Of a stretch of DNA of 64,000 nt, positions 6,339-61,200 are shown in pieces. A model generated the notes under the pieces. It made no database searches and was not told where the DNA came from. It saw only the letters and a list, made by a program, of their open reading frames with translations. Each line of letters opens with the position of its first letter. Position 1 is the stretch's first letter. The position numbers and the translations under genes were made by a program. Source of the DNA: an uncultured Alphaproteobacteria bacterium (GTDB lineage Bacteria > Pseudomonadota > Alphaproteobacteria > JAPOUT01 > G958296285); NCBI GenBank assembly GCA_958296285.1, contig OY282459.1, positions 1,282,762 through 1,346,761 of the forward strand, given 5' to 3'.

Positions 6339-8231
6339 ATGCTGGATCGCCTCAGACGCGCCACCGCCCATTGGATGGCGCGCATTCTGATCGGATTGTT
6401 GGCGCTGAGTTTCGCCTTTTGGGGAGTCGGCGATCTTGTCGCGCCGTCTCGTGATCCGGCAATCGCCGAGGTCGGGGACGCCGTCATTCCGCAGACTGTC
6501 TTCCAGCGCTCGCTAAACATCCTCCGCGAAAATCTGCGACAGCAGGGGCGCGCCCTCGCTTTTGACGAAATCCGCCAACTCGGACTGGATCGGCAGGTTC
6601 TGAACCTGCTGACTCGTCAAGAAGCGCTGTCGCTCGGGGCGGCGGCGCTGGGTCTGGACATTTCAGACAGGCGAATCGCCGAGGAAATCCGCGATGATCC
6701 CGCCTTCCAAGGACCTTTCGGCGGATTTGATCGGCAGACCTTCCGCGTGATTCTCGCCGAAGCGGGCTTGAGCGAGCAGCGATTCGCCGAAGAGCGCCGC
6801 AAAGTGCATCTGCGCCGCCAACTCGCCGCGACTGTCCTCGCCTCGCCCCCCGCCTCCGATATTCTCGCCCGCGCGCTCATCAAGCACAGTTTGGAAAAGA
6901 GGATTTTGGAATATGCCCTCCTCCCGATCTCTCTCGCGCCGAAGCCAAAGAGCCCAAATGACGAAACGCTCAAAAAATTCCTAACCCGCGAGCCTTCTCT
7001 CTTCATTCGCCCTGAGCGGCGCGACATTCTTTTGTTGGAGCTGAAGCCGGAGCATTTTTTCTCGTCTCTCGCCGTCTCCGAAGACGAAATCCGCGCCGAT
7101 TACGACGAGCGGCGCATGAGTTTCCGAACCCCTGAAAAGCGCGAAGTAGAGCAAATCATCTTCGCCTCGCGCGATGAAGCCGATGCCGCCCATGCCCGCC
7201 TCAAGAAGGGCGTCTCTTTCGCCGCGATCGCCGGCGAGAAGGGTTTGTCGGAGGAAGATCGGAATCTGGGGCTTCTCTCTGAGCGGGAGTTTTTGTCGCC
7301 CTCTTTGGCGGAAGCGGCTTTCGCTCTCAAAAAGGGCGAAGTGAGCGCTGTCGTGGAGGGGCCTTTGGGGCCGGTTCTGCTGCGAGTTGCCAAAATCGCG
7401 CGAGGCGAGGAGCGAAGCCTCGCTTCCGTCCGCGATCGCGTCAGGAGAGACATTCTGCGCCGCAAATCCGCCGGCGAGATGGAGACCATGCGAAATATCG
7501 TGGAAGACGCGCTGGCAGGGGGCGCGTCTTTGCGCGAAGCGGCGTCTGATCATTCGCTGCCGATCTCGGAACTGAAGGGCGTCTCCGCCGATGGAACAAG
7601 CGCGAAAGGCGCGAAACTGCCCGAGAGGGAGGGGCTGCTTGCCGCCGCCTTCGCCGCCGCGGAACATGAAGAGAGCGCCGCGCGAGAAATGGAAGAGGGC
7701 GGATATTTTTGGCTGGAAGTGGAAAAAATCCATCCCTCGCGCATTCCGTCTTTTGACGAGATTAGGGACGAAGCGCGGAAAATCTGGCGGAAGGAAACGC
7801 GGCGTCTCGCTCTCATTCGGCTCGCGGCGGATCTTGCCGAGCGCGGAAATGGGGGCGAAGATTTGCGCGATCTTCTCAAGAAATATGACCGCGCGCCGTT
7901 GAAGACGCCCGAAATTGGTCGTTTTTTCCGAAGCGATGTTTTTTCGGCGGAGCTTGTGGAGGCGGCTTTCGCAAGACCCGAAGGTCGTTTTGTCGCCGGC
8001 TCTGCCGAGATCGGCGACAGCGTGGTTCTTGTTCGGACGGCGAAGATCGTCAAGCCCTCCCCTTCCCGCGAAGAGGAGAGCGCTTTTAGAGACGCGCTTG
8101 GCGCGCGCTTGGCGAATGAGTTTTTGGAGCAATATGTCGTTTTTCTTTTGGAGCGTTATGGCGTTGTCGTTCACGGCGATGTTTTGGAGAGCGCGGTTCT
8201 GTCTGGCGGCGGCGGCTTGCTCGCGCCATGA
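6339..8231 (+). CDS. ppiD: periplasmic chaperone / peptidyl-prolyl isomerase PpiD-like (SurA N-terminal domain family)
   Basis: MLDRLRRATAHWMARILIGLLALSFAFWGV N-terminal anchor, about 630 aa, located upstream of trpE. Start trimmed from 6168 to avoid overlap with tpiA. Confidence 0.75.
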   Translation: MLDRLRRATAHWMARILIGLLALSFAFWGVGDLVAPSRDPAIAEVGDAVIPQTVFQRSLNILRENLRQQGRALAFDEIRQLGLDRQVLNLLTRQEALSLGAAALGLDISDRRIAEEIRDDPAFQGPFGGFDRQTFRVILAEAGLSEQRFAEERRKVHLRRQLAATVLASPPASDILARALIKHSLEKRILEYALLPISLAPKPKSPNDETLKKFLTREPSLFIRPERRDILLLELKPEHFFSSLAVSEDEIRADYDERRMSFRTPEKREVEQIIFASRDEADAAHARLKKGVSFAAIAGEKGLSEEDRNLGLLSEREFLSPSLAEAAFALKKGEVSAVVEGPLGPVLLRVAKIARGEERSLASVRDRVRRDILRRKSAGEMETMRNIVEDALAGGASLREAASDHSLPISELKGVSADGTSAKGAKLPEREGLLAAAFAAAEHEESAAREMEEGGYFWLEVEKIHPSRIPSFDEIRDEARKIWRKETRRLALIRLAADLAERGNGGEDLRDLLKKYDRAPLKTPEIGRFFRSDVFSAELVEAAFARPEGRFVAGSAEIGDSVVLVRTAKIVKPSPSREEESAFRDALGARLANEFLEQYVVFLLERYGVVVHGDVLESAVLSGGGGLLAP

Positions 8232-9772
8232 GCGCCCCTTTCCCTGACGCCTCCGCTTTCCGCGACATTCACAATGCAGGCAAGACGCAGATCGTTCGGC
8301 TGACGCTGCCTGCCGATTTGGAAACGCCTGTCGCCGCGATGATCAAATTGGCGGCGGGGAAGCGCGGCGCGTTCCTTTTTGAATCGGTGGAGGGCGGAGA
8401 GGCTCGCGGACGCTATTCCGTCATCGGCTTCGCGCCGGACGCCATTTGGCGATCTTACGGCGCGAGATGCGAGATCAATCGGCAGGCGGCGCGAGACCCT
8501 GACGCTTTTGAGATTTTGAAAGAGCCGCCTTTGGACGCGCTTCGCCGTTTCATCGCGGAGTCGCGTTTTGATCTGCCTGACGGTTTGCCGTCTTTGTCGG
8601 CGGGTTTGTTCGGCTATATGGGCTACGACATGGCGCGTCATGCCGAGCGTTTCGGGTCTCCGCCGCCTGACGCGATTGGCATTCCGGACAGCGTTTTCGC
8701 GCGTCCGTCTCGTCTTGTGGTTTTTGATTCGGTCAGCGACACGATGATTTGCATTGTTCGCTCGTCTCCGCGCCGGGGGCGCTCGGCTGACGAGGCTTAT
8801 GACGAAGCCTGTCGCGCTTTGCGCGAGATGCGGACGGCTTTGCAGAGGCCTCTGATGCCGAAGGAGCGCGGCGAGGATAGCCAGAGCGATGAAGGCGATG
8901 AAAGCGGCGGGGGCGGCGCGTCTTCGTCTGTTTCCATGCCGGTGCCGCGGTCCAACATGCAGCGCGCGCTTTATTTGGAGAAGGTTCGGCGCGTTAAGGA
9001 GTATATTTTCGCTGGCGACATTTTTCAGGCTGTTTTGAGTCAGCGTTTTTCGGCGTCTTTTTCGCTTTCGCCCATGACGCTGTATCGGTCTTTGCGGCGG
9101 ATAAATCCGTCTCCTTATCTTTATTATTTGGATTTTGGGGATTTTTCGGTTGTTGGCTCAAGTCCTGAGATTTTGGTTCGGCTGCGCGAGGGCGTGGTGA
9201 CGATTCGTCCGATTGCCGGGACTCGTCCGCGCGGGGGGTCGGCGGCGGATGATCTTCGCATTGGCGAGGAGTTGTTGTCGGATCCGAAGGAGCGCGCCGA
9301 GCATTTGATGTTGTTGGATTTGGGTCGGAATGATGTTGGGAGGGTATCGGAGATTGGTTCTGTTCGCGTGACGGAGCGTTTCGCGCTGCAGCGGACGTCT
9401 CATCTCATTCACATTGTTTCCAATGTTGAGGGTGTTTTGCGGCGCGGTTTGGAGGCTTTGGACGCTTTGATGGCGGGTTTTCCTGCTGGGACGGTTTCGG
9501 GCGCGCCGAAGATTCGGGCGATGGAGATTATTGATGAGTTGGAGGATGAGAAGCGGAGTTTATATGCGGGGGCGGTGGGGTATTTTTCGGCGAATGGGGA
9601 TATGGACAGTTGCATTGCCTTGCGGACGGCGTTGGTTAAGGATGGGGTGATGTATGTTCAGGCGGGGGGTGGGATTGTGGCGGATTCGGAGCCTGCTTAT
9701 GAGTATCGGGAGTCTGTGAAGAAGGCGGAGGTTTTGTTTCGGGCTGCTGAGGCTGTTGGAGGCTCCCGTTGA
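8228..9772 (+). CDS. trpE: anthranilate synthase component I
   Basis: LFESVEGGE, GDIFQAVLSQRF, PYLYYLDFGDF, GTVSGAPKIRAMEIIDELE. Start overlaps the ppiD stop. The last 4 codons and the stop lie inside the repeat element. Confidence 0.95.
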   Translation: MSAPFPDASAFRDIHNAGKTQIVRLTLPADLETPVAAMIKLAAGKRGAFLFESVEGGEARGRYSVIGFAPDAIWRSYGARCEINRQAARDPDAFEILKEPPLDALRRFIAESRFDLPDGLPSLSAGLFGYMGYDMARHAERFGSPPPDAIGIPDSVFARPSRLVVFDSVSDTMICIVRSSPRRGRSADEAYDEACRALREMRTALQRPLMPKERGEDSQSDEGDESGGGGASSSVSMPVPRSNMQRALYLEKVRRVKEYIFAGDIFQAVLSQRFSASFSLSPMTLYRSLRRINPSPYLYYLDFGDFSVVGSSPEILVRLREGVVTIRPIAGTRPRGGSAADDLRIGEELLSDPKERAEHLMLLDLGRNDVGRVSEIGSVRVTERFALQRTSHLIHIVSNVEGVLRRGLEALDALMAGFPAGTVSGAPKIRAMEIIDELEDEKRSLYAGAVGYFSANGDMDSCIALRTALVKDGVMYVQAGGGIVADSEPAYEYRESVKKAEVLFRAAEAVGGSR

Positions 9773-10066
9773 GGGGGGTTTGGGGGGGCGGCGAGCCGCC
9801 GCGGGCATCTTTTTCATAGAGAGGCATTTTGGCTTTACCCCAGGGGAACTAATGCATAGAAGCTTGAGGTGAAGGGGGGGTTGGGGGGCTTGCCCCCCAA
9901 GAAAAACCAAGCGGGCGCAAGCCCGCTACGGGCGGCGGGCTTCTCGCGCACTTGCGCTACGCGCTGCGTGCGCTTCGTTGCGCCACGCCCGCCGACCTTT
10001 TCGGGGGGGATTCCCCCCGACCCCCCCTTTCTCAAGGGGGGCTAGCCCCCCTTGACCCCCCTCAAG
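9758..10066. repeat. Mosaic G/C-tract palindromic intergenic element, copy A (modules Y, Z-prime, X)
   Basis: Y 9758-9879 matches the reverse complement of 17449-17562. X 9998-10066 matches 17395-17454 in direct orientation and contains a perfect G6-CTAG-C6 palindrome at 10036-10051. Z-prime 9909-9994 holds nested hairpins (agcgggc-gcaa-gcccgct; ggcgggc...gcccgcc). Confidence 0.9.
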
Positions 10067-10084
10067 AGGTGCTATAGTCGCCCC

Positions 10085-10672
10085 ATGATCCTCCTCATAG
10101 ACAACTACGACTCCTTCACATACAACCTCGTCCATTTCCTCGGCGAACTGGGCGCCAAAACCAACGTCCAACGAAACAACGCCACATCAGCATCAAAAGC
10201 CCTCGCCAAAAAACCCCAAGCCATCATCATCTCCCCAGGACCCAAAACCCCAAACGAAGCAGGAATATCCCTAAATCTCATAAAAACCGCCGCCAAACAC
10301 AATATCCCAACCCTCGGCGTCTGCCTCGGACACCAAACCATCGGACAAGCCTTCGGCGCGAAAATCACCCGCGCCATCCCCACCCACGGCAAAATCAGCG
10401 CCATCAACCACAACAGCAAAGGAGTCTTCCAAAAACTCCCCTCACCCCTCCAAGCCACCCGATACCACTCCCTCATCATAGAAGAAAATACGCTGCCCCA
10501 ATGCCTCGCCATCACCGCGAGAACATCAGACGGAACAATCATGGGAATCCAACATAAAACCCTCAACGCCCACGGAGTCCAATTCCACCCCGAAAGCATT
10601 GAAACCGAACACGGACACAAAATCCTCCAAAACTTCCTCAAACTCGCAGGAATAAAAGGAATAAAAAAATGA
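10085..10672 (+). CDS. trpG: anthranilate synthase component II (glutamine amidotransferase, TrpG/PabA)
   Basis: MILLIDNYDSFTYNLVHFLGELG, GVCLGHQ, GVQFHPES. Start trimmed to the ATG at 10085. Confidence 0.9.
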   Translation: MILLIDNYDSFTYNLVHFLGELGAKTNVQRNNATSASKALAKKPQAIIISPGPKTPNEAGISLNLIKTAAKHNIPTLGVCLGHQTIGQAFGAKITRAIPTHGKISAINHNSKGVFQKLPSPLQATRYHSLIIEENTLPQCLAITARTSDGTIMGIQHKTLNAHGVQFHPESIETEHGHKILQNFLKLAGIKGIKK

Positions 10673-11694
10673 GCGAAAACCTCAAAAAAACCCTCGCGCT
10701 TATCGCGTCAGGCGAAAAACTCGCGCCCGCCCAAGCCGAAACCGCCTTCCAACATCTCATGTCCGGCGAAGCCAAAGACGCCGAAATCGGCGCGCTCCTC
10801 ATGGGACTCCATATGCGCGGCGAAACAACAGACGAAATCGCCGCCGCCGCCAAAATCATGCGCGCCGCCGCCACGCCCGTCCAAGCCCCGAAAAACGCCA
10901 TAGACCTCTGCGGAACAGGCGGCGATATGAAAGGAAGCCTCAATATCTCCACCGCCGCGTCTTTTATAGTCGCCGCCTGCGGCGTCCCGGTGGCGAAGCA
11001 CGGAAACCGCGCGCTCTCGTCTCAGTCAGGCGCGGCGGACGTCCTTTTGGCGCTCGGCGCTGAAACCGCCCTCCCGCCCCAGACCATCGCCCAATGCATC
11101 AAGGAAACGGGCATCGGCTTCCTCTTCGCGCCCTCGCACCACCCCGCCGCGAGACATGTCGCGCCGGCGCGCGCGGCGCTCGGCATCAGGACAATCTTCA
11201 ACCTCCTCGGACCTCTCTGCAATCCCGCCTTCGTCAAACGGCAACTGATCGGAGTCTTCGCGCCCGAATGGCTGACGCCCCTCGCCGAAGTGCTGCGCGA
11301 TTTGGGAAGCGAGCGCGTTTGGATCGTTCATGGCTCGGACGGGATGGACGAAATCACCCTTTCCGGCGAAACCCGCGCCGCCGAACTCAAAAACGGCAAA
11401 GTCCGCCCCTTCACGATCACGCCCGAAGAAGCAGGACTTCCTCGCGCTCCATCGGAGAGTCTCAAAGGCGGGACGCCTCAACAGAACGCGGCGGCTCTGC
11501 GGAGACTGTTGGACAGCGAAAGCGAAAACGGGGCTTATAGAGACGCTGCCGTTCTGAACGCGGCGGCGGCGCTCGTCATCGCGGAGAAGGCAGGAGATTT
11601 GCGCGAAGGCGCGGCGCAAGCCTCCGAATCTCTTTCCAGCGGACGCGCCGCCGACACCTTTCACGCCTTTCGCAATTTCACGAAGAAGCCATGA
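10669..11694 (+). CDS. trpD: anthranilate phosphoribosyltransferase
   Basis: DLCGTGGDMKGSLNISTAASFIVAACGVPVAKHGNRALSS. Confidence 0.95.
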   Translation: MSENLKKTLALIASGEKLAPAQAETAFQHLMSGEAKDAEIGALLMGLHMRGETTDEIAAAAKIMRAAATPVQAPKNAIDLCGTGGDMKGSLNISTAASFIVAACGVPVAKHGNRALSSQSGAADVLLALGAETALPPQTIAQCIKETGIGFLFAPSHHPAARHVAPARAALGIRTIFNLLGPLCNPAFVKRQLIGVFAPEWLTPLAEVLRDLGSERVWIVHGSDGMDEITLSGETRAAELKNGKVRPFTITPEEAGLPRAPSESLKGGTPQQNAAALRRLLDSESENGAYRDAAVLNAAAALVIAEKAGDLREGAAQASESLSSGRAADTFHAFRNFTKKP

Positions 11695-12503
11695 GGCATA
11701 TCCTCCAAACAATCCAAACCCGCAAGCGCGAGGAACTCGCCCGCGCGCGAAAAGACGCCCCCCCATCCGCGTTGGAAGCGCGGACAGGCGAAGCTCCCGC
11801 AATCCGTCTTTTCCGTGAATCTTTGGAAAAGAGGCGCGAGACAAGCCCCGCGATCATCGCCGAGATTAAAAAGGCGAGTCCTTCCAAGGGCGTCATCCGC
11901 GAGGATTTTGACCCCGCCGCTCTCGCGGAAAATTTGGAGAAAGGGGGCGCGGCGTGTTTGTCGGTGCTGACGGATAAGGATTTTTTTCAAGGCGCGGCGG
12001 AGCATCTTGGAGAGGCGAAAGAGGCGACCGCGCTCCCAATCTTGCGCAAAGATTTTCTGATAGACCCCTATCAGGCGCTAGAGAGCCGCGCTTGGGGCGC
12101 GGACGCCGTGTTGTTGATTATGGCTCTGCTGGAGCGCCAGCAAGCCGCCGAGATCGCCGCCGCCGCGAAGGAATGGGAGATGGACGTCCTCGCCGAAGCG
12201 CATGACGAGAAAGAGTTGGAAGAGGCGCTGCGCTTAGAACCCGACATGATCGGCATCAACAATCGGAATCTCAAAACTTTTGAAACCTCGCTGGATGTGT
12301 CTTTGCGTCTTGCGCGAGAGATTCCGCGAGACGCGCTCGCCATCGCCGAGAGCGGCATTGAGAGCCATGACGACATTTTGCGTCTTCAAGAGGCGGGGAT
12401 CCATTGCTTCCTCATCGGCGAAACTTTGATGCGCGCCGATGATCCGGCGCGGAAGATTCGGGAGTTGTTAGGAGAAGAGGATGAAGAAGACAAGCCATCT
12501 TGA
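11691..12503 (+). CDS. trpC: indole-3-glycerol-phosphate synthase
   Basis: IIAEIKKASPSKGVIREDF, LRKDFLIDPYQ, INNRNLKTFE. Confidence 0.95.
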   Translation: MRHILQTIQTRKREELARARKDAPPSALEARTGEAPAIRLFRESLEKRRETSPAIIAEIKKASPSKGVIREDFDPAALAENLEKGGAACLSVLTDKDFFQGAAEHLGEAKEATALPILRKDFLIDPYQALESRAWGADAVLLIMALLERQQAAEIAAAAKEWEMDVLAEAHDEKELEEALRLEPDMIGINNRNLKTFETSLDVSLRLAREIPRDALAIAESGIESHDDILRLQEAGIHCFLIGETLMRADDPARKIRELLGEEDEEDKPS

Positions 12504-14614: not shown

Positions 14615-15985
14615 TCACAGCAGAAAATACGCCGCCAAGCCCAAAAAGGCGAAAAAGCCGACAACATCCGTGACTGTCGTCAAAAACACGCCGGACGAAA
14701 TGGCGGGATCGGCGCCGATTTTCTCTAATGCCAGAGGGATCAGAATTCCAGCGAGCGCGGCGGTCAGCATATTGACAATCACGGCGGCGAAAAGAACCAT
14801 CCCAAGCGCGAAATTCTTAAACCACGCGCCTCCAATCACCCCCAAAATCACGGCAAGCGATACGCCATTCAGAACTCCCACGCCGATCTCGCGCATGATG
14901 ATCCTGCGCTGATTCGCCGCGACAAGCTCGCGAGTCGCCAGCGCGCGCACGGCGACGGTGAGAGTCTGAATGCCCGCCACGCCTCCCATGGACGCCACGA
15001 TCGGCATCAGAACCGCCAGCGCCACCATTCCGGCGATCGCGTCCTCAAAAAGCGCGATGACGACAGACGCCAAAATCGCCGTCATCAGATTGACGAAGAG
15101 CCATAAAAAGCGTCTGCGCGCCGATTCCAGCACCGTGCCGGAGAGTCTGTCGCGTCCGACTCCGCCGAGCCTCTTGATGTCTTCGCTCGCTTCTTCGGTG
15201 ATGACTTCCACGATGTCGTCCGCCGTGATCATGCCCATCAGCATGCCGTTCTGATCCACGACGGGCGCGCTGACCAGATTATATCGGCGGAAGGCTTCGG
15301 CGACATCTTCGCGGTCTTTATGGGCTTCTATCTTGAGAGGCTCGCCCTGCATCAGGCTGTTCAGAGACTCTTCGCGCTTGGCGCGGACGAGGCGGCTCGT
15401 CAAGACGCTTCCGATGAGTCTCCATGTCGGGCTGACGATATAGATTTCGTAGAAATCCTTCGGGAGTTCGGCGCTTTGGCGCAGATGGTCTATGACGCGT
15501 CCTACGCTCCAGAAGGCGGGGACGGCGACCAGATCGCGCTGCATGAGGCGTCCTGCGCTGTCTATCGGGTAATCCAGTCCGCGCTCAATATCGGAGCGCG
15601 CGCGGAGGGGAACGCGATCTAGGATATTTCTTCGGCGGGTTTCGTCCAGCCCTTCCACGAGGGCGAGCGCGTCATCGGAGGCGATTGTGGCGAGGGCGGG
15701 CGCGAGTTTTTCGGGGGCGAGGAGCGGGAGGATATCGGCGAGGACGCCTTCTTCCAGTTCCGAGAGGATTTCGGGCTTGAGTTCGTCATTGAGGAGGGTG
15801 ATGAGTTTGTGTCGTTCTTCGGGTTTGAGGAGTTCTAGGATTTCGGCGGCGTCTGCGGCGTGGAGTTCGTGGATTTGGTTTTGGAGTTTCGCGCGATGTT
15901 CCGCGGTGATGGCTTCGCGCGTTTCTTGGAGGATATTTGGGACGGGCGTTTCGGTGGGTTCCGTGGTGTGGGGGGGATTAGACAT
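14615..15985 (-). CDS. mgtE: magnesium transporter MgtE
   Basis: N-domain, two CBS-like segments and a C-terminal TM domain (GGVAGIQTLTVAVRALA, DPAISSGVFLTTVTDVVGFF). Confidence 0.9.
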   Translation of the reverse strand: MSNPPHTTEPTETPVPNILQETREAITAEHRAKLQNQIHELHAADAAEILELLKPEERHKLITLLNDELKPEILSELEEGVLADILPLLAPEKLAPALATIASDDALALVEGLDETRRRNILDRVPLRARSDIERGLDYPIDSAGRLMQRDLVAVPAFWSVGRVIDHLRQSAELPKDFYEIYIVSPTWRLIGSVLTSRLVRAKREESLNSLMQGEPLKIEAHKDREDVAEAFRRYNLVSAPVVDQNGMLMGMITADDIVEVITEEASEDIKRLGGVGRDRLSGTVLESARRRFLWLFVNLMTAILASVVIALFEDAIAGMVALAVLMPIVASMGGVAGIQTLTVAVRALATRELVAANQRRIIMREIGVGVLNGVSLAVILGVIGGAWFKNFALGMVLFAAVIVNMLTAALAGILIPLALEKIGADPAISSGVFLTTVTDVVGFFAFLGLAAYFLL

Positions 15986-16033
15986 ACGCCGCGCCTTTTT
16001 TGCTTTTTTGTCTGTGGCGTATATTTAGCCTAT

Positions 16034-16076
16034 GGGGGCTGATTTATAAAAGCCCCCGACTCTTTTGGATCGGGGG
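16034..16076 (-). terminator. Three-arm alternative hairpin (terminator-like) between the DUF1640-like stop and the mgtE start
   Basis: Minus-sense RNA reads cccccga-N10-tcggggg followed by cuuuuau. The same G-tract can instead pair as gggggcu-N10-agccccc. Confidence 0.35.
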
Positions 16077-16096
16077 CGAGTTTGTGAGATTTTGTT

Positions 16097-16426
16097 CTAG
16101 GATGCTAATTTGAGAAGGATTGCGCCTGTCAGAGTGAAATTCGCTATCATGAAGGTGATGGTGACTCCGAACATCCATTTTAGCAGGCGCATGTCGGCTT
16201 GGACTTCTCCGAAGCGTTTTTCCATGTCTATTCTGAGTTCTCCGATCTGCGCGTTCATATCGGCGCGGAGTTCTCCGACCCGTTCTTCCACGTTCCGAAG
16301 CCGTTCTTCTATGTTCCGAAGCCGTTGCTCATCGCGGTTGGCTTCCAGCGCTTCTATAGCGGCGGTGGCTTTGTGATCGCTGACTTTCGCTTCTTTGAGG
16401 GCATCATAGACTGCGACGAGGCTCAT
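16097..16426 (-). CDS. coiled-coil membrane-anchored protein (DUF1640-like)
   Basis: 109 aa with heptad-like repeats (RLRNIEERLRNVEERVGELRADMNAQIGELRIDMEKRFGEVQADMR), then LKWMFGVTITFMIANFTLTGAILL as a C-terminal TM. GC lower than neighbours. Confidence 0.5.
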   Translation of the reverse strand: MSLVAVYDALKEAKVSDHKATAAIEALEANRDEQRLRNIEERLRNVEERVGELRADMNAQIGELRIDMEKRFGEVQADMRLLKWMFGVTITFMIANFTLTGAILLKLAS

Positions 16427-16496
16427 GGTTTATCTCCTTATGGTTGTGTTTTTGTAGCATTTTTGGTTCTTCTGCCGCAATCTTTAGAAGAAAGAA

Positions 16497-16657
16497 AAGG
16501 GGGGTGTGGGGGGTCGGAGACCCCCCGCGAAAAAGGGGGGATCGGGGGGATTCCCCCCCGAAAAGCGCGTGGGTGGGGTGGGGAAAAGAGCATTTGCGAG
16601 CGAAGCGTAAGCGTAGCGAGCAAATGCGACCCCACCCACGCGCCCCCTGCTCGCAGG
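16497..16657. repeat. Mosaic palindromic element, copy B (G/C-tract hairpins plus Z hairpin)
   Basis: 16543-16657 matches the reverse complement of 17289-17410. Z hairpin 16565-16643 has outer arms gcgcgtgggtgggg / ccccacccacgcgc and inner arms gcatttgc / gcaaatgc. Confidence 0.9.
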
Positions 16658-16672
16658 AGCTACTGATTCAGA

Positions 16673-17131
16673 TCAAAGATCGCCAAGCCTGCGCCGAAAC
16701 ACTTCATCAAACTTTTCTAATCTCTCCTTGAACCAAGCATATTGCGCGCATCTGTGGTTCATATTTTCCCAATCAGCTTCCTCTTCCCAGCTTTGGGTAA
16801 TAGATGGGAATCCCCATTGCAGTGGTGGAGGTGTGCCAATTTCCCTCTCAATGGCTTCTTTATCTGCATGCAGTTGGTTAAAACATTCCTTAGCGTAAAG
16901 CATGTCGGTGTCGGGGACAGGAAAACTTTTGCCATAGATAGAAAACCTAACAGCTACCTTGCGCGGCGGCGTCTTATAAAAACACGCCCATATGCGAAAG
17001 CCTGCTCTCCCCATAGAGAATCCTAGAGTGCTGCCAGACGACCGACAACGCCCGCGCCCAATATGTGAGTCAGACGCTCTGAGGCACTTAAGCAAACCTT
17101 GCCAATAGAGGCGGTGTTCTTCTTTAGACAT
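16673..17131 (-). CDS. hypothetical protein, DUF4268-like
   Basis: 152 aa, about 49% GC in a counted 100-nt window. Pattern LYWQGLL ... VRFSIYG ... FNQLHADKEAIEREIG..LQW ... W..FKERLEKF resembles DUF4268 from memory. No search was possible. Confidence 0.45.
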   Translation of the reverse strand: MSKEEHRLYWQGLLKCLRASDSHIGRGRCRSSGSTLGFSMGRAGFRIWACFYKTPPRKVAVRFSIYGKSFPVPDTDMLYAKECFNQLHADKEAIEREIGTPPPLQWGFPSITQSWEEEADWENMNHRCAQYAWFKERLEKFDEVFRRRLGDL

Positions 17132-17149
17132 TTGTCATTTCCGCAAAAA

Positions 17150-17236
17150 TGGTGCGGTCGAGAAGACTCGAACTTCCACGGGGTTGCCCCCACAGCGCCC
17201 TCAACGCTGCGCGTCTACCTATTCCGCCACGACCGC
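17150..17236 (-). tRNA. tRNA-Leu (anticodon GAG), CCA encoded
   Basis: Reverse complement GCGGTCGTGGCGGAATAGGTAGACGCGCAGCGTTGAGGGCGCTGTGGGGGCAACCCCGTGGAAGTTCGAGTCTTCTCGACCGCACCA. 7-bp acceptor stem, anticodon loop TTGAGGG, long variable arm, GTTCGAGTC T-loop. Confidence 0.9.
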
Positions 17237-17288
17237 ATCCAAAACACAATTAGCAGAAATTAACCAACCCCTCAACCTCGCTAGAAAT

Positions 17289-17562
17289 CTTGCGAACAGG
17301 GGGCGCGTGGGTGGGGTCGCATTTGCTCGCTCGCTACGCCACGAGTGGCTTCTCTTCGCTCGCAAATGCTTTTTTCCCCACCCCACCCACGCGCTTTCGG
17401 GGGGATTCCCCCGAACCCCCTTTCTCAAGGGGGGCTAGCCCCCCTTGACCCCCCTTCACCTCAAGCTTCTATGAATTAGTTCCCCCTGGGGCAAACCCAA
17501 AATGCCTCTCTATGAAAAAAATGCCCGCGGCGGCTCGCCGCCCCCCCTTAACGGGAGCCTCC
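17289..17562. repeat. Mosaic palindromic element, copy C (modules Z, X, Y in inverted order)
   Basis: Z 17303-17394, X 17395-17454 (G6-CTAG-C6 at 17429-17444), Y 17449-17562. Y overlaps the last 4 codons and the stop of cysH. Confidence 0.9.
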
Positions 17563-18312
17563 ATGAATCCCGCACTCCTCCTTCTCTAAACCACCCCATC
17601 TACCATCACGATACGAACCCCCCGAACCAACAGAAGCCGTGCAAGGAACACACCCTATAGACAAATACCCACGCTTCACCAACGGATGAACAACCAAACT
17701 ATGCCGCTCAACATAAGAACCAAGAGCCTCCTGATCCCAATCCACAAGAGGATTAATGGAAAACCGCGCCACGCTCCCCGCCATCTCCCGAAACTCTATC
17801 GCCTCCAAAATCGCCCGACTCGCCGTCTGAAAACGCTTCCGACCCGTGATCACCGCCTCAAATCCCCCCAACGCCCGCCGCAACGGCAAAACCTTCCGAA
17901 AATGACAGCAAGCGTCAGGATCCTCGCTCCAAAGAGAACCATCCGAATCCAACCGCGCCCGATCCACAGGATCAGGACCAATGGAACGCAAATCCGTCAA
18001 ACCCAGCCGATCCTGCAATAAATCACGATAGCGAAGAGTCTCCGGAAACAACTTCCCCGTATTCAGAAAAATCACGGGAACAGACGGATCAATCTCCGAA
18101 ACCATATGCAGCAAAACCACCGACTCCGAACCAAAAGACGAAACCACCGCAATCCTGCCCGGAAAAACCTCCTTGATCATCGCCTCAAGAAGAGGCTTGC
18201 CGGACAGCGCATATTCACGCCGCAACATCTCAAGACGCGCCGCCGCCTCGGCAGGAACCTCCCCCGAAGCGCGAGGCATCGGAATCTCGGCGCGATTCTC
18301 TAAACCAGCCAT
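17548..18312 (-). CDS. cysH: phosphoadenosine-phosphosulfate (PAPS/APS) reductase
   Basis: SFGSESVVLLHMV, DPDACCHFRKVLPL, C-terminal EKEECGIH motif. Confidence 0.9.
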   Translation of the reverse strand: MAGLENRAEIPMPRASGEVPAEAAARLEMLRREYALSGKPLLEAMIKEVFPGRIAVVSSFGSESVVLLHMVSEIDPSVPVIFLNTGKLFPETLRYRDLLQDRLGLTDLRSIGPDPVDRARLDSDGSLWSEDPDACCHFRKVLPLRRALGGFEAVITGRKRFQTASRAILEAIEFREMAGSVARFSINPLVDWDQEALGSYVERHSLVVHPLVKRGYLSIGCVPCTASVGSGGSYRDGRWGGLEKEECGIHGGSR

Positions 18313-18845
18313 TTTTGATCCTCCATCATCGCGCGGCTTTTCTCACGGACAGCGCTCGGCGCTAATCCCTGATCGCGCCACCGATCCCGCGCCGCCGACA
18401 GCGCCAACAAACGATCGCGCCATTCCGCCCCATAATGGCGAGAGAGATCATCACGAAGCATCCGCGCCGCCGAAGGCGATCTGCCTCCGGTGGAAACGGC
18501 GAAAAGCAAATCCCCTCGCCGCAAAATGGACGGAACATGAAAATCGCACAAAGCCGGAATGTCTTCTGTGTTGACAAGAGCGCCGACAGCGCGCGCGCGA
18601 GCCGCGAGCGGACGGGCTTCCTCTTCCGAAAATCCCGCGATGAACAGAATCGCGCCGCGCATCTCCTCATCTTTCGGAAGACGCCGCCGAATCGGAAAAC
18701 TCATCAGAGCCTCACCGCGCGGCGCGTAGATTTCCGCCTCCATCTTTGCCGCTCCGATGAGCCGACAGCGTTTTAACAGCGGCTCGCCCTCGCCAATGAG
18801 GAGAATCTTTTTCCGATTCGGGTTAAGGACGATCGGCAGCATCAT
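18300..18845 (-). CDS. precorrin-2 dehydrogenase / sirohydrochlorin ferrochelatase-like (siroheme synthase N-terminal domain)
   Basis: KILLIGEGEPLLKR Rossmann-like start and LVNTEDIPALCDFHVPSILRRGDLLFAVSTGGRSPSAARMLRDDL, matching the CysG-N/SirC signature. Overlaps the cysH start. Confidence 0.7.
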   Translation of the reverse strand: MMLPIVLNPNRKKILLIGEGEPLLKRCRLIGAAKMEAEIYAPRGEALMSFPIRRRLPKDEEMRGAILFIAGFSEEEARPLAARARAVGALVNTEDIPALCDFHVPSILRRGDLLFAVSTGGRSPSAARMLRDDLSRHYGAEWRDRLLALSAARDRWRDQGLAPSAVREKSRAMMEDQKWLV

Positions 18846-55421: not shown

Positions 55422-56180
55422 TCAGCCCTTCTCCACTTGATTGTATCCGAGCTCCACCGGCGTGGATCTGCCGAAAATGGAGACCGAAACTTTTAACCGC
55501 GAGCGCTCCACATCCACATCCTCCACAACGCCGTTGAAGGAGGCGAACGGCCCGTCCGAAACGCGAACCTGCTCGCCGATGGAGAAAATGACCGAAGGGC
55601 GGGGTCTGTCCACGCCCTGCCGCATCTGCCCCAAGATTCTATCCACCTCGCCCTGCGACAGAGGCTGCGGGGAATCGGCGTCCCCCAAAAAGCCCGTCAC
55701 GCGAGGCAGATTGCGTATGAAATGCTGCGTCTCTCCGTTCATCTCCATTTTTAGAAGCAGATAGCCAGGGAACAATTTGCGCTTGACCTCTTTATTTTGC
55801 CCGCGCCGCATCTCCAGCACTTCCTCCACAGGCACGAGCATTTCGTCAAAATACTCCGCCAAGCCTTGAGGAACCATGCGCTCCTTTATGGTGTCGCAGA
55901 CGCGCTGCTCAAAATTGGATTGCGTATGCACGATATACCACGCCTTCTTCTCGTCTTGATCTTCGCCGTCAGGCTTGTTGCCCGCAGGTTCGCCCGAGGG
56001 CTCGCCGCCGGCAGGCTTGCCGCCGGCAGGTTCGCCCGAGAGCTCGCCAGAGGGTTCGCCGCCGGCAGGTTCGCCGCCAGCAGGCTCGCCCGAGGGCTCG
56101 CCGCCGGCAGGCTCGCCCGAGAGCTCGCCGCCTGCGGCTTCGCTCGGCAGTTCTTTCTCAACCTTATCGCTGTCGGTCAT
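55422..56180 (-). CDS. nusG: transcription termination/antitermination factor NusG with about 75-aa repetitive N-terminal extension
   Basis: Core [17 protein letters not shown] ... FPGYLLLKM ... [24 protein letters not shown]. Start set to the ATG at 56180 ([10 protein letters not shown]). Confidence 0.9.
55980..56132 (-). repeat. In-frame tandem repeat array in the nusG 5' region (15-nt units, G-E-P-[AS]-G)
   Basis: Encodes [51 protein letters not shown]. The DNA shows nested repeats (tcgcccgagggctcgccgccggcagg twice). Confidence 0.85.
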
Positions 56181-58253: not shown

Positions 58254-61200
58254 TCAAAATGCTCCTGCAACGCCAAAACGAATGAAACGATCCGAAGAGC
58301 CTCTGATATGCCCCGCTTCCCTATGCCAGCCCGCCGAAATCTTCATAGAAACCCCATCCGACAACGGCTTGACATAAAGCGCCTCCAAGTGAATCGCCCG
58401 CCCGGAAGGTTTTAAAGACCCCTCTGCCCTCTGATCAATGAGAGACCCGTCTCGGCGGCGGGAAACGGCGTAATCCAAGGCGAAGCCGCCCTTCTCCACC
58501 CGCAAAGGCTGACGCGCGCGCAGGGCGATCCAATCTTCCTGCGAGAAAACGCCGCGCTTGCCCAAGCCCGCCGTGAAAGCGCTCATCACGATCGGGCCTT
58601 TTAACGACAAAAGCGAAACGCCGTCAATCTTCGGCGACATGAAGCCCGCCTCGGCGCTGATAAAGAGATGCCAGCCGCGCGCGAGCGCCTTCTCATGCGA
58701 GACGCCAAAAAACCAATTTTCTCGCGCGCCGTCCGCATGGAACGCGCCATCGCTCCAGCCCCCCAAAAGCCGATCTTCCTCGCGCAAAAGTCCGGCATGA
58801 AGATTCCAGCCCTCCCAAGCGAAATGCGCCAGCAAAGCGTATGAGGCTTTTTCTTCGCGGCTCGCGTCCCGCGCGTGATCCTGCCAGAGAGGCTTGCCTG
58901 AAAAAAGACCAAGATTCATAGAATAATCGCCGCCCTCCCAAGACAGCCCCGCGCCCACGCCATCGGCGATCAAAGAAAAATGCGCCGGAGACCTCTCGCG
59001 CCAAAGAGGCGACCGCGTCTCCGCCGCCATCAGAGCGGCGGGATGCTGAATGCCGAAAACCCGCGCCCCCAAAAGACGATAAGGCTCAACGCGGCGCTTC
59101 GCGCCGAGCGGTCTCAGAAAATCCCCCATCGCGTCAGGCGCGGCAAGGCTGAAATAACGACCAAGAGACGAATAAAAGGGCGCGCTCAACGCGTCAAACC
59201 GCGCGATGATCCTGCCCCGCAAAGCGCGGGCGAGACTGTCGCCGAGAGCCGGCGGCGCGACAAAGAAACTCTCCGCCGACAAAAAGGACGCTCTTGAGCC
59301 GCCCGCCCCCGCCGCCCCGCTCATGGAAGTCGCGCCGACAGGACGAGTCGCGGCGTCTATGTCTAAAAGCCCATGCCCGTAAATGTCGCTGTCGGCATAG
59401 ATGCCGGAACTGTCCGCCGTCTGCAGCAGACGCCATGCCAATTCCGGCGCGCCCATCGTGTCGCCGAAGGCTTCCATCAGGATCGCCAAAGCGCCCGCCA
59501 CATGCGGCGCGGCGAAAGAGGTGCCTTGCACAAGAACATCCGCGCGATCCGTGCCTTTCGCCGACACGCCTTCTCCGAAAGCGGCGAGACACCACTCCTT
59601 CGCATGACCGCATTTGTGATAGTTCGGAATAAGAGCCCCTGCCGTGTAGCGGGTTCTCGCTTCATTCAGAACCCTCCGCAGGGCGACAACGGCGAGGATC
59701 AGAGGCCTGTTCCTGTCCGCGCCGAGAAGATCGGGGAAATAGAAGGGCGTGTCGGAGAAGAGTCGGGGATGATCTTCATCCCAGCCGGGCCCTATAATCA
59801 TCCCTTCAGGGTTTCGAATATCCTCTGCGATATTCCCTGCGGAATAGACATAGACCGTCCTGTCCTCTTCGGGCGTATCATTTTGGCGGAAGACCTCATA
59901 ATAGTTGATGCTCGGGTTATTGATTCTTGCCTTTATCCTCGCTATCTCGCTTTCGGTGGCGGTCTCATAGTCGGCGATCACAATTTGCGTGATACCGTCA
60001 AAGAAGAGGATAGACTGGCTGACATTGACGATCTTCACATGATTTTGGAAATAGGCGAGACCGCTGGTGCTGGCCGTTGTTCCTGAATGGAGGAGAATCT
60101 TGGCGTTGAAAGCGATTCCATGAAAATCGGTGAGGCTGCCGCCGGCATCCCCCCTCTTCGCCGCGACAACGCCGCTCACGTGATTCCCATGCAGCAAAGT
60201 GATGCCGCTGTTCATGCCCACCAAGATTTCGCAATCTGTCGCGCTCGCGACCGTGCCGGCGGCAGGGCAATTCCTCACGCGGATCAGATCGGTATAAAGA
60301 CCATCGCTCGCCTGCGCATCGGTCAGAAGCGTCCGCCCTGCAGGAAGGCGGAATTGTTGGGCTGTGATCGTCGTTTCCATGGTGACGGGATCGGTGTTCG
60401 TTTCGCCTATCGCGCAATTGGTCGTTGTCGGCGTGGTGACGTCGGCGGGATTGAGCGCCGCGCCGGTGCAATTGTCCGCCGGCAGATAATATCTGTCCAC
60501 GCCCAACACTCCCCTGTCATGGGCGACGGTGAGCCTGCCGGCATAAGCGTTCACGAGAGAGGCGTCCCAGAGATGTCCCTCCAGCACGCCGACCGTCTGC
60601 CCCGCGCCGGTGAAGCCTCGCGCATAGGCTTCGGCGGCGCCGGACGCCTCAAAGCCGGGCTGCGTGCGATATTCCTGCGTCCTCCAAAAAACCGCCGAGC
60701 GAGAGAGCGTAGGCACGGTGATGCTCCAAACCTTCTGCGTGGCGTGTTTTGTCAGCGTGAAGCCGCCTAGAGTCGTGAGATCGCCCACGGTGAAGGTTCC
60801 CGTCCCGGTGAAAAGATTGATGACCGTCCCTGAGGCGGTGCTGGAGGGAAGGCTTACGCGGAGATTCCCCTTCAACGTCACATTCGCCGCGCCGAAATCA
60901 AGAAGCGCGGTCGCGCCTGACGGAAGGACGCGAATCTGAAAGGTCAGTTCGCCGCCGTCATTTTGCAAAAAAGTCTCCAAACCCTGAATCGCGAGCCTGC
61001 TGCCCATGATCCGAAGGTTCAGATCGCCGCTGTTGGTGAAACTGTCGCCCGTGCCGCCGCCGAAATTGGCATTGGCGGTCAGAGTCATGCGGGCGTCCGC
61101 CATATTGGTGACCGTGTCGCTGCCCGCGCCGAGGTCAAAGCCGCCGATGAAAGCGCCGTGATTGTTAAAAACATCCGCCGCGCCGCTCGCCGTGATGCTG

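What the first reader, a model, noticed from the sequence alone, without database searches (positions are those of the whole stretch)
9758..9772. The repeat supplies an identical C-terminus (GGSR-stop) to two unrelated genes, trpE and cysH
trpE ends gga ggc tcc cgt tga (9758-9772). cysH ends, on the minus strand, gga ggc tcc cgt taa (17562-17548). In both cases these codons are the first bases of module Y. Homology then continues for more than 100 bp into the intergenic region.

CysH otherwise ends right after its conserved ECGIH motif. The element has therefore inserted into, or replaced, the extreme 3' ends of two ORFs in the same frame and orientation, giving each the same tail and stop codon.
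Basis: seen in the sequence. Interest (0 to 1): 0.55.

Follow-up and report, generated by a model that had tools for sequence, protein, structure and literature searches.

The report
Repeat cluster edge caps two genes
The outer edge of a lineage-specific palindromic repeat cluster has overwritten the last few codons of two unrelated housekeeping genes, giving both the same Gly-Gly-Ser-Arg-stop ending. That is a known kind of event, but here each cluster is also flanked by about 800 bp of extreme one-strand mutation bias, which I found no report of.

Summary
trpE (8228-9772, +) and cysH (17548-18312, -) both end GGAGGCTCCCGTTRA, and homology runs on for about 130 nt (123/130 identical).

GGSR is not ancestral. 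117 of 120 CysH homologues end in GI, mostly as ...DG(D/E)GI, and TrpE homologues end ...EEAvRFAxxxG(RGQ). Only a 98%-identical sister strain shares GGSR. Two syntenic outgroups have no repeats at either site.

The 15 nt are not strictly "module Y". In the sister strain trpE has the cap without the Y core, and another Y core there has no cap and no ORF next to it. The cap is the terminal arm of a mosaic cluster of hairpin modules bounded by G6/C6 runs. Its TTGA-G6 pairs with C6-TCAA at the far end of the cluster.

The shared frame (n=2) is the one that adds the shortest tail: 4 aa against 16-37 aa. Coxiella QMITEs do the same kind of thing, so the finding itself is a new member of a known kind.

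An unexpected extra: all four cluster flanks carry plateaus of about 800 bp in which the strand pointing at the cluster is G+T-rich (GT3 up to 0.93, or down to 0.03 on the other side). This is absent in the outgroups, and the cap codons do not share it. It suggests recurrent single-stranded DNA or break repair at the clusters.

The parts
8228..9772 (+). trpE ORF (514 aa). Its last 5 codons are the cap.
   Evidence: TIGR00564, 2e-160
9758..9772 (+). Cap GGAGGCTCCCGTTGA, which encodes Gly-Gly-Ser-Arg-stop. It is the left terminal arm of the trpE-trpG repeat cluster.
   Evidence: It pairs with 10056-10072 in DNA folds of both strains. Its codons are unskewed.
9773..9788 (+). G6-TTT-G7, left copy of the direct repeat that brackets the Y core
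   Evidence: The sister strain has a single copy and no Y core.
9789..9873 (+). Y core, trpE-side copy (CGGCGAGCCGCC...GAGGTGAA). It is absent from the sister strain's trpE spacer.
9874..9888 (+). G7-TT-G6, right copy of the direct repeat that brackets the Y core
9758..10072 (+). Whole trpE-trpG mosaic palindromic cluster. It folds as nested hairpins at -101.5 kcal/mol (z = -6.1). The outgroups have a 45-bp spacer or an ATGA overlap here.
10056..10072 (+). Right terminal arm CCCCCCTCAAGAGGTGC, complementary to the cap's TTGAGGGGGG and part of GGCTCC. It lies 12 nt upstream of the trpG ATG (10085).
17548..18312 (-). cysH ORF (254 aa). Its last 5 codons are the cap.
   Evidence: NF002537, 6e-74
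17548..17562 (-). Cap GGAGGCTCCCGTTAA, which encodes Gly-Gly-Ser-Arg-stop directly after the conserved ECGIH motif
17455..17540 (-). Y core, cysH-side copy. It starts with the hairpin GCGGCG-AGC-CGCCGC followed by GGGCAT7.
17288..17562 (-). cysH-side repeat cluster: cap, Y core, G6CTAGC6 hairpin and a long hairpin module. Its inner modules differ from the sister strain's.
16499..16662 (-). Third cluster. It begins 10 nt after the stop of ORF152 with GTAGCTCCTGCGAGCAGGGGG, a terminus that resembles the cap. It shares its long hairpin module with 17288-17404.
   Evidence: (I3, I4)
16673..17236 (-). Strain-variable islet between clusters 2 and 3. It holds ORF152 (partial DUF4268, 16673-17131) and tRNA-Leu(GAG) (17150-17236). 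The sister strain carries a GST gene in place of ORF152. The islet is unskewed.
8958..9757 (+). Skew tract in the trpE 3' half. + strand G+T is 0.66-0.72 and GT3 is 0.82-0.93.
10085..10884 (+). Skew tract covering trpG and the start of trpD. + strand G+T is 0.27-0.34 and GT3 is 0.03-0.17.
15699..16498 (.). Skew tract covering the mgtE 5' end, a small ORF and spacers. + strand G+T is 0.56-0.70. Coding-strand GT3 of mgtE codons 0-120 is 0.10-0.25.
17563..18362 (.). Skew tract covering the whole of cysH. + strand G+T is 0.28-0.42 and coding-strand GT3 is 0.80-0.93.

Best explanation
The shared 15 nt are the outer arm of a lineage-specific, non-coding mosaic repeat. The repeat consists of clusters of nested hairpin modules bounded by G6/C6 runs. 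It resembles REP/BIME clusters in layout and MITEs in having an inverted terminal arm. These clusters have colonised the spacers just downstream of trpE and cysH.

At both genes the cluster edge lies inside the ORF. The last roughly 8-12 ancestral codons are gone. Translation runs four codons into the cluster arm (GGA GGC TCC CGT) and stops at the TRA of the TTRA-G6 motif, which recurs at module junctions.

The Y core is a separate module that comes and goes by indels. It sits between G-runs and is not what defines the gene end.

The common frame is most simply explained by purifying selection. It is the only frame that adds 4 residues rather than 16-37.

Inferred, not shown: the clusters are recurrent sites of single-stranded DNA exposure or of breakage and recombinational repair. 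The palindromes would stall forks or be cleaved, and the flanks would be resected and resynthesised. This would explain three things: the ~800-bp strand-asymmetric transition bias on every flank, the rapid module turnover between 98% strains, and the erosion or overwriting of the adjacent ORF ends.
For: Shown:
- Identical cap plus about 130 nt of homology.
- GGSR is absent from 119/120 CysH and 119/120 TrpE homologues, the exception being the sister strain. Conserved ancestral tails ...DG(D/E)GI and ...EEAvRFAxxxG are missing.
- Two fully syntenic outgroups (L003, L009) have no cluster at either site. They have a 45-bp spacer or an ATGA overlap between trpE and trpG, and normal protein tails.
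- The cap's third codon positions (A, C, C, T) break a run of 46 consecutive G/T-ending codons in trpE. Fisher p = 3e-4 for trpE and 0.015 for cysH.
- The cap's TTGAGGGGGG and part of GGCTCC pair with CCCCCCTCAAGAGGTGC at the other end of the cluster in both strains.
- The cap resembles other cluster termini and the 3' end of Y.
- Cap without Y, and Y without cap.
- Tail lengths by frame are 4, 37 and 19 aa at trpE and 4, 30 and 16 aa at cysH.
- Precedent: Coxiella QMITE1/2 overlap the 3' ends of ubiB, pntAA, mutT, nagZ, recN, ruvB and enhC, and confer terminal residues and stops (PMC5896051).

For the inferred step:
- Four of four flanks are skewed with the same polarity and the same ~800-bp extent, 0.66-0.73 against a background of 0.49 +/- 0.05.
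- The bias is of transition type at two-fold sites.
- It also affects replaced amino acids and non-coding spacers.
- It is absent in the outgroups.
- Break-associated same-strand mutation showers and inverted-repeat-induced flank mutagenesis are documented in other systems (PMC3628087 and PMC3681665). Convergent repair synthesis has been described for double-strand break repair in E. coli, in a paper that also discusses palindromes and SbcCD (PMC4752480).
Against: - There are only two independent cap events. The sister strain's copies are orthologous.
- No genome-wide survey was possible. The source genome and its sister are not in the searchable DNA collections.
- The cysH-side cluster is not closed by a matching terminal arm.
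- No target-site duplication and no transposase or RAYT was seen, so how the clusters spread is unknown.
- The 11 nt upstream of the TTRA-G6 motif (GGAGGCTCCCG) occur only at these two loci, so their membership of the element rests on composition and on loose similarity to other termini.
- For the break/ssDNA model, the skew tracts are not more diverged between the two strains than other DNA, and strain-specific cargo is unskewed. An ongoing process is therefore not demonstrated.
- At both sites the genes run the same way through the cluster, so polarity relative to the cluster cannot be separated from polarity relative to transcription.
Confidence: 0.72

Rival explanations
1. The cap is native trpE coding sequence, not element sequence. 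A segment comprising the last 15 nt of trpE plus the adjacent repeat was copied to the cysH end by ectopic gene conversion or flank transduction. Under this view only cysH lost its true end.
For: TrpE C-termini in the family are Gly/Ser/Arg-rich and variable in length. One homologue ends ...AGRSR, and the nearest outgroup ends ...FDGS. The 11 nt GGAGGCTCCCG are found only at these two loci. The two copies are inverted repeats 7.6 kb apart and could recombine (I1/I2).
Against: The cap's codons end A, C, C, T after 46 consecutive G/T-ending trpE codons. Native sequence should share the saturated bias. The cap takes part in the terminal inverted pairing of the trpE cluster. It also resembles other cluster termini and the 3' end of the Y core. 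TrpE lacks the conserved RFA... segment.
Confidence: 0.12
2. Y, with the cap as its first bases, is a discrete active MITE that transposes with a preference for ORF 3' ends and for one reading frame.
For: The two cap+Y copies are 95% identical in the same orientation and frame relative to the ORF. The Y core is present or absent between strains and is bracketed by a 15-nt G-rich direct repeat that could be a target duplication.
Against: The cap occurs without Y, and Y occurs without the cap and away from any ORF end. The Y core has no terminal inverted repeats. No target-site duplication flanks cap+Y. A frame match in n=2 has a chance probability of 1/3, and that frame minimises the added tail. 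No transposase was seen in the annotated neighbourhood.
Confidence: 0.08
3. The module is retained for a function. It could be a transcription terminator or mRNA-stabilising hairpin placed exactly at the stop codon, a regulator of translation termination, or a functional GGSR peptide tag.
For: The Y core opens with a GC hairpin followed by a T-run. The clusters are strongly structured (z = -4.3 to -7.3). The cap is conserved in both strains at both genes, while the codons just upstream in trpE differ (5 changes in 9 nt).
Against: The T-run starts 5 nt after the stem, so it is not a canonical terminator. In the sister strain trpE has the cap without Y. A terminator between trpE and trpG would split an operon that is translationally coupled in an outgroup. 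There is no Rfam match. Inner modules turn over freely between strains.
Confidence: 0.08
4. The flanking G+T/C+A skew is not a footprint of breakage or ssDNA. It would instead reflect selection on the mRNA (GU-rich upstream, CA-rich downstream) or transcription-associated mutation, and would be unrelated to how the cap arose.
For: At both sites all genes run the same way through the cluster. The pattern can therefore be described equally well as 'upstream gene GU-rich, downstream gene CA-rich' in one transcript. The tracts are not hot spots of present divergence.
Against: Transcription-associated deamination predicts a G+T-rich coding strand on both sides, but trpG, trpD and mgtE have C+A-rich coding strands. 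The bias also reshapes amino acids and non-coding spacers. It extends ~800 bp on all four flanks, which is hard to explain by selection on the RNA.
Confidence: 0.15

Closest known systems
Coxiella burnetii QMITE1/QMITE2 (PMC5896051)
   Same: These are small structured non-coding repeats lying mostly downstream of genes. Several overlap the 3' ends of functional genes by 1-50 bp and supply terminal residues and/or the stop codon. They show strain-specific indels, and QMITE2 carries highly stable stems.
   Different: There is no sequence similarity. QMITEs are discrete units with direct and inverted terminal repeats, whereas these are mosaic clusters of G6/C6-bounded modules. No flanking strand-asymmetric composition is mentioned in the passages read.
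REP/BIME clusters of enterobacteria and pseudomonads (from general knowledge)
   Same: Both consist of short imperfect palindromes combined with linker motifs into mosaic clusters. Both lie in spacers just after stop codons or between genes of an operon, and both vary between strains.
   Different: The G6/C6-run architecture is different. An association with a RAYT transposase and the copy number could not be tested. REPs normally lie outside ORFs rather than replacing their last codons.
Rickettsia palindromic elements (RPE) and mycobacterial MIRUs (from general knowledge)
   Same: These repeats intrude into coding sequence. RPEs insert in frame, and MIRUs overlap the stop and start codons of flanking genes within operons.
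   Different: RPEs are read through as an internal peptide. Here translation stops after four codons and the native tail is lost. There is no tandem MIRU-like periodicity.
Break-associated strand-coordinated mutation showers, inverted-repeat-induced flank mutagenesis (PMC3628087, PMC3681665) and vertebrate mtDNA strand asymmetry (general knowledge)
   Same: As I recall from the wider literature on such showers (not from the abstracts read here), the mutated strand switches across the break. Both C>T-type and A>G-type bias fall on the strand expected to be single-stranded. The extent is on the kilobase scale. Hairpin-forming repeats act as the trigger.
   Different: Those are somatic or experimental events, or act genome-wide. 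Here the bias is an evolutionary, near-saturated equilibrium at synonymous sites, confined to ~800 bp around natural bacterial repeat clusters. Breaks and a deaminase are not demonstrated.

Membership tests
MITE (e.g. Coxiella QMITE) | Terminal inverted repeats at both ends of the element | tested here: inconclusive
   The trpE-trpG cluster is closed by the cap (GC.CC..TTGAGGGGGG) pairing with CCCCCCTCAA..GG.GC in both strains. The cysH-side cluster is not. The Y core alone has none.
MITE (e.g. Coxiella QMITE) | Target-site duplication flanking the insertion | tested here: not met
   The flanks GCTGTT|cluster|TATAGT and ATTCAT|cluster|... share no direct repeat. The empty sites in L003 and L009 show no duplicated target. 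Only the Y core is bracketed by a 15-nt G-rich direct repeat, which could equally be a recombination scar.
MITE (e.g. Coxiella QMITE) | Many dispersed copies and a related autonomous IS or transposase in the genome | not testable with these tools
   Only 64 kb plus about 40 kb of sister-strain DNA were available, giving 3 clusters. The genome, metagenome and viral scans found no informative copy: a single chance hit in Runella in the genome scan, none in the metagenome and viral scans. No transposase family appears in the annotated neighbourhoods.
REP/BIME | Short imperfect palindromic units in spacers immediately downstream of ORFs | tested here: met
   All three window clusters and the sister strain's clusters start 0-14 nt from, or inside, an ORF 3' end. 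They fold far better than shuffled sequence.
REP/BIME | Mosaic combination of units and linker motifs that varies between loci and strains | tested here: met
   The orthologous spacers of two 98% strains keep their outer ends but differ in inner modules.
REP/BIME | Conserved GTAG head and a cognate RAYT (TnpA-REP) gene | tested here: inconclusive
   One terminus reads GTAG-CTCCTGCGAGCAGGGGG, but the cap and the other termini do not. RAYT presence cannot be tested without the genome.
Rickettsia palindromic element (RPE) | In-frame insertion that is translated through, with the host ORF continuing beyond it | tested here: not met
   Translation stops after 4 element codons. No remnant of the ancestral tail was recognised on the far side of the clusters.
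Intrinsic (Rho-independent) terminator | GC-rich stem-loop immediately followed by a U-tract | tested here: inconclusive
   The scan reports GCGGCG-AGC-CGCCGC followed by GGGCATTTTT at 17541-17527. The T-run begins 5 nt after the stem. The trpE-side copy is not reported, and the sister strain's trpE spacer has no copy at all.
Break/ssDNA-associated strand-coordinated mutagenesis | The mutated strand switches across the site, with polarity matching 3' tails or convergent repair synthesis | tested here: met
   On all four flanks the strand running 5'->3' toward the cluster has G+T of 0.66-0.73 for ~800 bp. The bias is of transition type at two-fold sites.
Break/ssDNA-associated strand-coordinated mutagenesis | Physical breaks or ssDNA at the site, with polarised substitutions (C>T, A>G) inferred on a tree | not testable with these tools
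   The outgroups are saturated at synonymous sites (64-66% aa identity), so only composition could be compared, not direction of change. The two close strains differ too little within the tracts.

The most novel reading that the evidence does not exclude
The palindromic G6/C6 clusters are natural, recurrent break or fork-stalling sites. Over evolutionary time, each round of resection and repair leaves the 3'-ended (or newly resynthesised) strand enriched in C>T and A>G changes. This has driven about 800 bp on each side to near-saturated strand-asymmetric codon usage, recoded parts of housekeeping proteins, and eroded or overwritten adjacent gene ends. The GGSR cap would be one visible scar of that erosion. 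If so, this is a kataegis-like mutational footprint fixed at equilibrium in a bacterial genome, which to my knowledge has not been described.
Probability: 0.35. Interest if true: 0.85.

Novelty: new variant of a known kind. Interest (0 to 1): 0.55.

Why it matters
The GGSR cap on its own is a clean, datable example of selfish intergenic repeats rewriting the C-termini of essential biosynthetic enzymes. It is useful for annotation: such tails are not family features. It also bears on how far repeat clusters may encroach on genes.

The larger point is the association with ~800-bp tracts of extreme one-strand transition bias on every flank. If that holds genome-wide, it would give a natural read-out of where, and with what polarity, single-stranded DNA is recurrently exposed around structure-forming repeats in a bacterium. 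It would show that local mutational processes can recode hundreds of codons of conserved genes. It would also offer a sequence-only marker separating old native DNA from newer repeat DNA, which is how it was used here to assign the cap to the cluster.

Tried and rejected
- A genome-wide survey of Y and cap copies was not possible. The single genome-contig scan with a Y-core 20-mer gave only a chance hit in Runella. Two metagenome scans, for the cap and for the Y core, found nothing. Viral scans for the cap and Y core found nothing, and a scan for the G6CTAGC6 palindrome gave a single unrelated contig.
- Exact-protein look-ups of the window's TrpE, CysH and enolase were not on record. Look-ups with EF-Tu and LipA added only cluster-free DNA or the same sister-strain spacer.
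- I tried to fish out ORFs that gene callers translate through the repeats, using an 882-aa query built from stop-free translations of the modules. Nothing passed E <= 0.001.
- Rfam gave nothing near gathering thresholds in either spacer apart from tRNA-Leu.
- No sigma-70-like promoter was reported in the spacers.
- The G+T-rich spot at 31.8 kb is a Lys/Ala-rich protein tail on the minus strand and is unrelated.
- ORF152 in the islet is a partial DUF4268, not a recognisable nuclease or transposase. The sister strain has a GST there instead.
- Assembly artefact was rejected. The skew is specific to codon position, the ORFs are intact, and the same sequence is seen in independent assemblies (window, ERZ19489113, ERZ19489054).
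- An origin-like model, with outward strand-displacement synthesis starting at the cluster, was rejected because it predicts the opposite polarity (reasoning).
- Literature searches found no description of local skew flanking bacterial repeats.
Full report
**Observation**

The window's trpE ORF (8228-9772, +) ends gga ggc tcc cgt tga at 9758-9772. The cysH ORF (17548-18312, -) ends gga ggc tcc cgt taa at 17562-17548. Both gene identities are secure (TIGR00564 at 2e-160; NF002537 at 6e-74). The 15-mer occurs only at these two places, even with two mismatches allowed; 0.23 matches are expected by chance. Homology continues downstream for about 130 nt, with 123/130 aligned positions identical, one 9-nt indel and a few 1-2-nt indels. 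Nothing upstream of the GGA codon is shared. The literal observation is confirmed and is not chance.

**Is GGSR ancestral?**

It is not.
- Among 120 CysH homologues, 117 end in GI, mostly as the conserved ...DG(D/E)GI motif, 4-12 residues after ECG(I/L)H. Only the window's protein and a 98%-identical one (P0001) stop at ECGIH-GGSR.
- Among 120 TrpE homologues, the C-terminus runs ...LFRAAEEAvRFAxxxG(RGQ). Only the window and P0121 (98%) read ...AAEAV-GGSR.
- Two more distant but perfectly syntenic genomes have no repeat at either site. L003/L004 are 64-66% identical and L009 is 59-62% identical; both share the order surA-trpE-trpG-trpD-trpC-moaC-moeA-...-DUF1489-mgtE-tRNALeu-cysH (L009 has one extra glyoxalase gene after moeA).
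- In these outgroups trpE and trpG are 45 bp apart or overlap by ATGA. Their protein tails are ...AHLFDGS and ...VPASSAPKTSPR in L003, and ...PLPEAAK and ...QSSFTGGEGI in L009.

So about 8-12 ancestral codons were lost from each gene and replaced by four repeat-derived codons plus a stop.

**What the 15 nt belong to**

The window comes from a 1,733,000-bp contig. The sister strain's CysH and TrpE cluster with proteins identical to the window's. The sister strain itself (L002/L007; 96.8-98.9% nucleotide identity) is informative in three ways.
- Its trpE also ends with the cap. However, the cap is followed directly by GGGGGGTTTGGGGGG-CTAG-CCCCCC, and the 85-nt Y core (CGGCGAGCCGCC...GAGGTGAA) is absent. 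In the window the Y core sits between two copies of that G-rich 15-mer.
- The sister strain has a third, diverged Y core (L002 about 12020-12121, inverted) inside another cluster, with no cap and no adjacent ORF end.
- The orthologous spacers keep their outer ends but differ in their inner modules.

The cap is therefore separable from Y. It is the terminal arm of a mosaic cluster. DNA folding of the trpE-trpG cluster in both strains closes the whole 315-nt cluster with an outer stem. In that stem the cap's GC.CC..TTGAGGGGGG pairs with CCCCCCTCAA..GG.GC, 12 nt upstream of the trpG start (z = -6.1 and -7.3).

The TTRA-G6 / C6-TYAA motif recurs at module junctions. The stop codon is therefore part of a repeated motif. 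The cap also resembles the 3' end of the Y core (AGAAGCTTGAGGTGAA-G6) and other cluster termini (GTAGCTCCTGCGAGCA-G5 after ORF152, and the equivalent after the sister strain's GST). The cysH-side cluster is not closed by a matching arm.

**Frame and orientation**

Entering the cluster in the observed frame adds 4 residues. The other two frames would add 37 and 19 residues at trpE, and 30 and 16 at cysH. With two independent events, a shared frame has a chance probability of 1/3, and it is the frame selection would favour. No frame preference of an insertion mechanism can be claimed. No target-site duplication flanks the clusters. Rfam finds nothing in the spacers apart from tRNA-Leu. The Y core opens with a hairpin plus T-run that is only loosely terminator-like.

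**An unexpected associated feature**

Reading the flanks showed a strong switch in strand composition.
- Left of the trpE-trpG cluster, + strand G+T is 0.66-0.72 for about 800 bp. Right of it, G+T is 0.27-0.34 for about 800 bp.
- The same polarity and extent flank the composite cysH ... mgtE region (clusters 2 and 3 plus the islet between them).
- The rest of the window is 0.49 +/- 0.05.

By codon position:
- Third positions are nearly saturated. GT3 rises from 0.72 to 0.93 along trpE and is 0.80-0.93 in cysH. It is 0.03-0.15 in trpG, 0.17 in the first 80 codons of trpD, and 0.10-0.25 in the first 120 codons of mgtE.
- Two-fold sites show the bias is of transition type: Y>T and R>G on one side, Y>C and R>A on the other.
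- Replaced amino acids follow the same bias. At substituted residues, codon positions 1+2 have G+T of 0.61-0.71 against 0.32-0.43 in the outgroup on the G+T side. In trpG the values are 0.18-0.25 against 0.42-0.52.
- Non-coding spacers inside the tracts are skewed too.

Further observations:
- Both outgroups lack the skew at these sites.
- The sister strain has it.
- The tracts are not hot spots of divergence between the two strains.
- Strain-specific cargo next to tRNA-Leu is unskewed: ORF152/DUF4268 in the window and a GST in the sister strain.
- It is not an assembly artefact. The pattern is specific to codon position, the ORFs are intact, and the same sequence appears in independent assemblies.

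**Use of the skew for the question in hand**

In trpE, 46 consecutive codons before the cap end in G/T. The cap's four sense codons end A, C, C, T (Fisher p = 3e-4 for trpE; p = 0.015 for cysH; the same holds in the sister strain). The skew boundary falls exactly at the first base of the cap. This argues that the cap is cluster DNA rather than old native coding sequence of either gene. It counts against the rival in which the cap is trpE's own end carried over to cysH.

**Mechanism**

Shown: the cap is repeat-derived, the ancestral tails are lost, the Y core is separable, the clusters are mosaics that turn over quickly, and skew tracts coincide with the clusters.

Inferred: the skew has the polarity expected from any of three processes.
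- The strand whose 3' end points at the cluster is recurrently single-stranded, as after 5' resection of a break at the palindrome.
- That strand is the one resynthesised by convergent repair synthesis.
- A fork stalls at the cluster with the helicase uncoupled from the polymerase.

Supporting context comes from other systems. C>T plus A>G on the exposed strand is the classical single-strand signature known from vertebrate mtDNA (general knowledge). Break-associated same-strand mutation showers and inverted-repeat-induced flank mutagenesis are documented (PMC3628087, PMC3681665). Convergent repair synthesis has been described for double-strand break repair in E. coli, in a paper that also discusses palindromes and SbcCD (PMC4752480).

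Recurrent breakage and repair at the clusters would also explain the module shuffling and the erosion of the neighbouring ORF ends. I give this inferred part roughly 0.35-0.45 probability. At both sites the genes run the same way through the cluster, so a transcription- or RNA-related polarity cannot be strictly excluded. However, transcription-associated deamination predicts the wrong sign for trpG, trpD and mgtE. Outward synthesis from the cluster, as at an origin, predicts the opposite polarity and is rejected.

**Comparison with what is known**

Repeats that overlap gene 3' ends and donate terminal residues and stops are documented. Coxiella QMITE1/2 overlap ubiB, pntAA, mutT, nagZ, kdgK, ogt, recN and ruvB, and extend EnhC by 33 residues (PMC5896051). 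In layout the clusters resemble REP/BIME mosaics. They differ from RPEs, which are read through.
- Membership of the MITE class fails on target-site duplication and is inconclusive on terminal inverted repeats.
- REP/BIME-like layout is met, but RAYT association and copy number are untestable here.
- I found no report of kilobase-scale, near-saturated strand-asymmetric tracts flanking bacterial repeat clusters. The search was limited.

**Limits**

There are only two independent cap events and two skewed regions. My attempts to reach other clusters through proteins also failed.

**Verdict**

The repeat does supply a non-ancestral GGSR-stop to both genes, but through the cluster's terminal arm rather than through Y as such, and without evidence for frame-specific insertion. 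As a phenomenon it is a new member or variant of a known kind. The flanking skew is the part that deserves follow-up.

Noticed in passing
window 8958-9757, 10085-10884, 15699-16498, 17563-18362: There are ~800-bp plateaus of extreme strand-asymmetric composition on all four flanks of the repeat-bearing regions. G+T on the strand pointing at the cluster is 0.66-0.73, and GT3 reaches 0.93 on one side and 0.03 on the other. The bias also appears in replaced amino acids and in spacers. It is absent in two syntenic outgroups.
   Followed up: yes
window 16673-17236; L002 11055-11865: A strain-variable islet lies beside tRNA-Leu(GAG), between two repeat clusters. The window carries a 152-aa partial DUF4268 ORF, and the 98% sister strain carries a glutathione S-transferase gene instead. 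Both are lower in GC and unskewed. The outgroups have only the tRNA here.
   Followed up: partly
window 9773-9888 versus L002 19064-19081: The Y core is a presence/absence polymorphism in the trpE spacer. It is bracketed by a 15-nt G-rich direct repeat (G6TTTG7 / G7TTG6). This could be either a target duplication or a scar of recombination between G-runs.
   Followed up: partly
window 9743-9751 versus L002 (trpE codons just before the cap): Five substitutions in 9 nt separate the two strains (GCT GAG GCT versus GCC CAA GAT; AAEAV versus AAQDV) immediately upstream of the invariant cap. In the window this creates a direct repeat, GAGGCTGTTG / GAGGCTCCCGTTG.
   Followed up: no
window 16097-16426 (-); L002 12234-12751: A small coiled-coil plus hydrophobic-tail ORF (109 aa, weak DUF7310 match) lies between cluster 2 and mgtE. 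It is absent in the outgroups and partly duplicated in the sister strain (110 aa plus 61 aa). Its skew is only moderate, so it may be a later arrival.
   Followed up: partly
window 10050-10087: TTGACC-N15-TATAGT lies with its -10 element 7 nt from the trpG ATG. This would imply a leaderless or near-leaderless trpG transcript. The -35 part lies inside the cluster and is absent in the sister strain. The consensus scan did not call it.
   Followed up: no
window 11100-12300: This block, covering the trpD 3' end and trpC, is much more diverged from the sister strain than the rest (67 differences in 1.2 kb, against about 1.7% on average and 0.2-0.5% in the skew tracts). It suggests a recombination import.
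   Followed up: no
window 8840-8930 (TrpE residues ~205-240): TrpE carries a low-complexity acidic/Gly/Ser insertion (GEDSQSDEGDESGGGGASSSVSMPVPRS). It aligns poorly with the outgroup (36% identity in that block) and differs between the two strains.
   Followed up: no
window 55964-56144 and 58254-63992: A 15/27/12-nt periodic GC-rich tandem repeat lies inside an ORF. Separately, a 1912-aa S8-peptidase gene has ~590-bp internal repeats, and its length differs between strains (1911-1924 aa).
   Followed up: no
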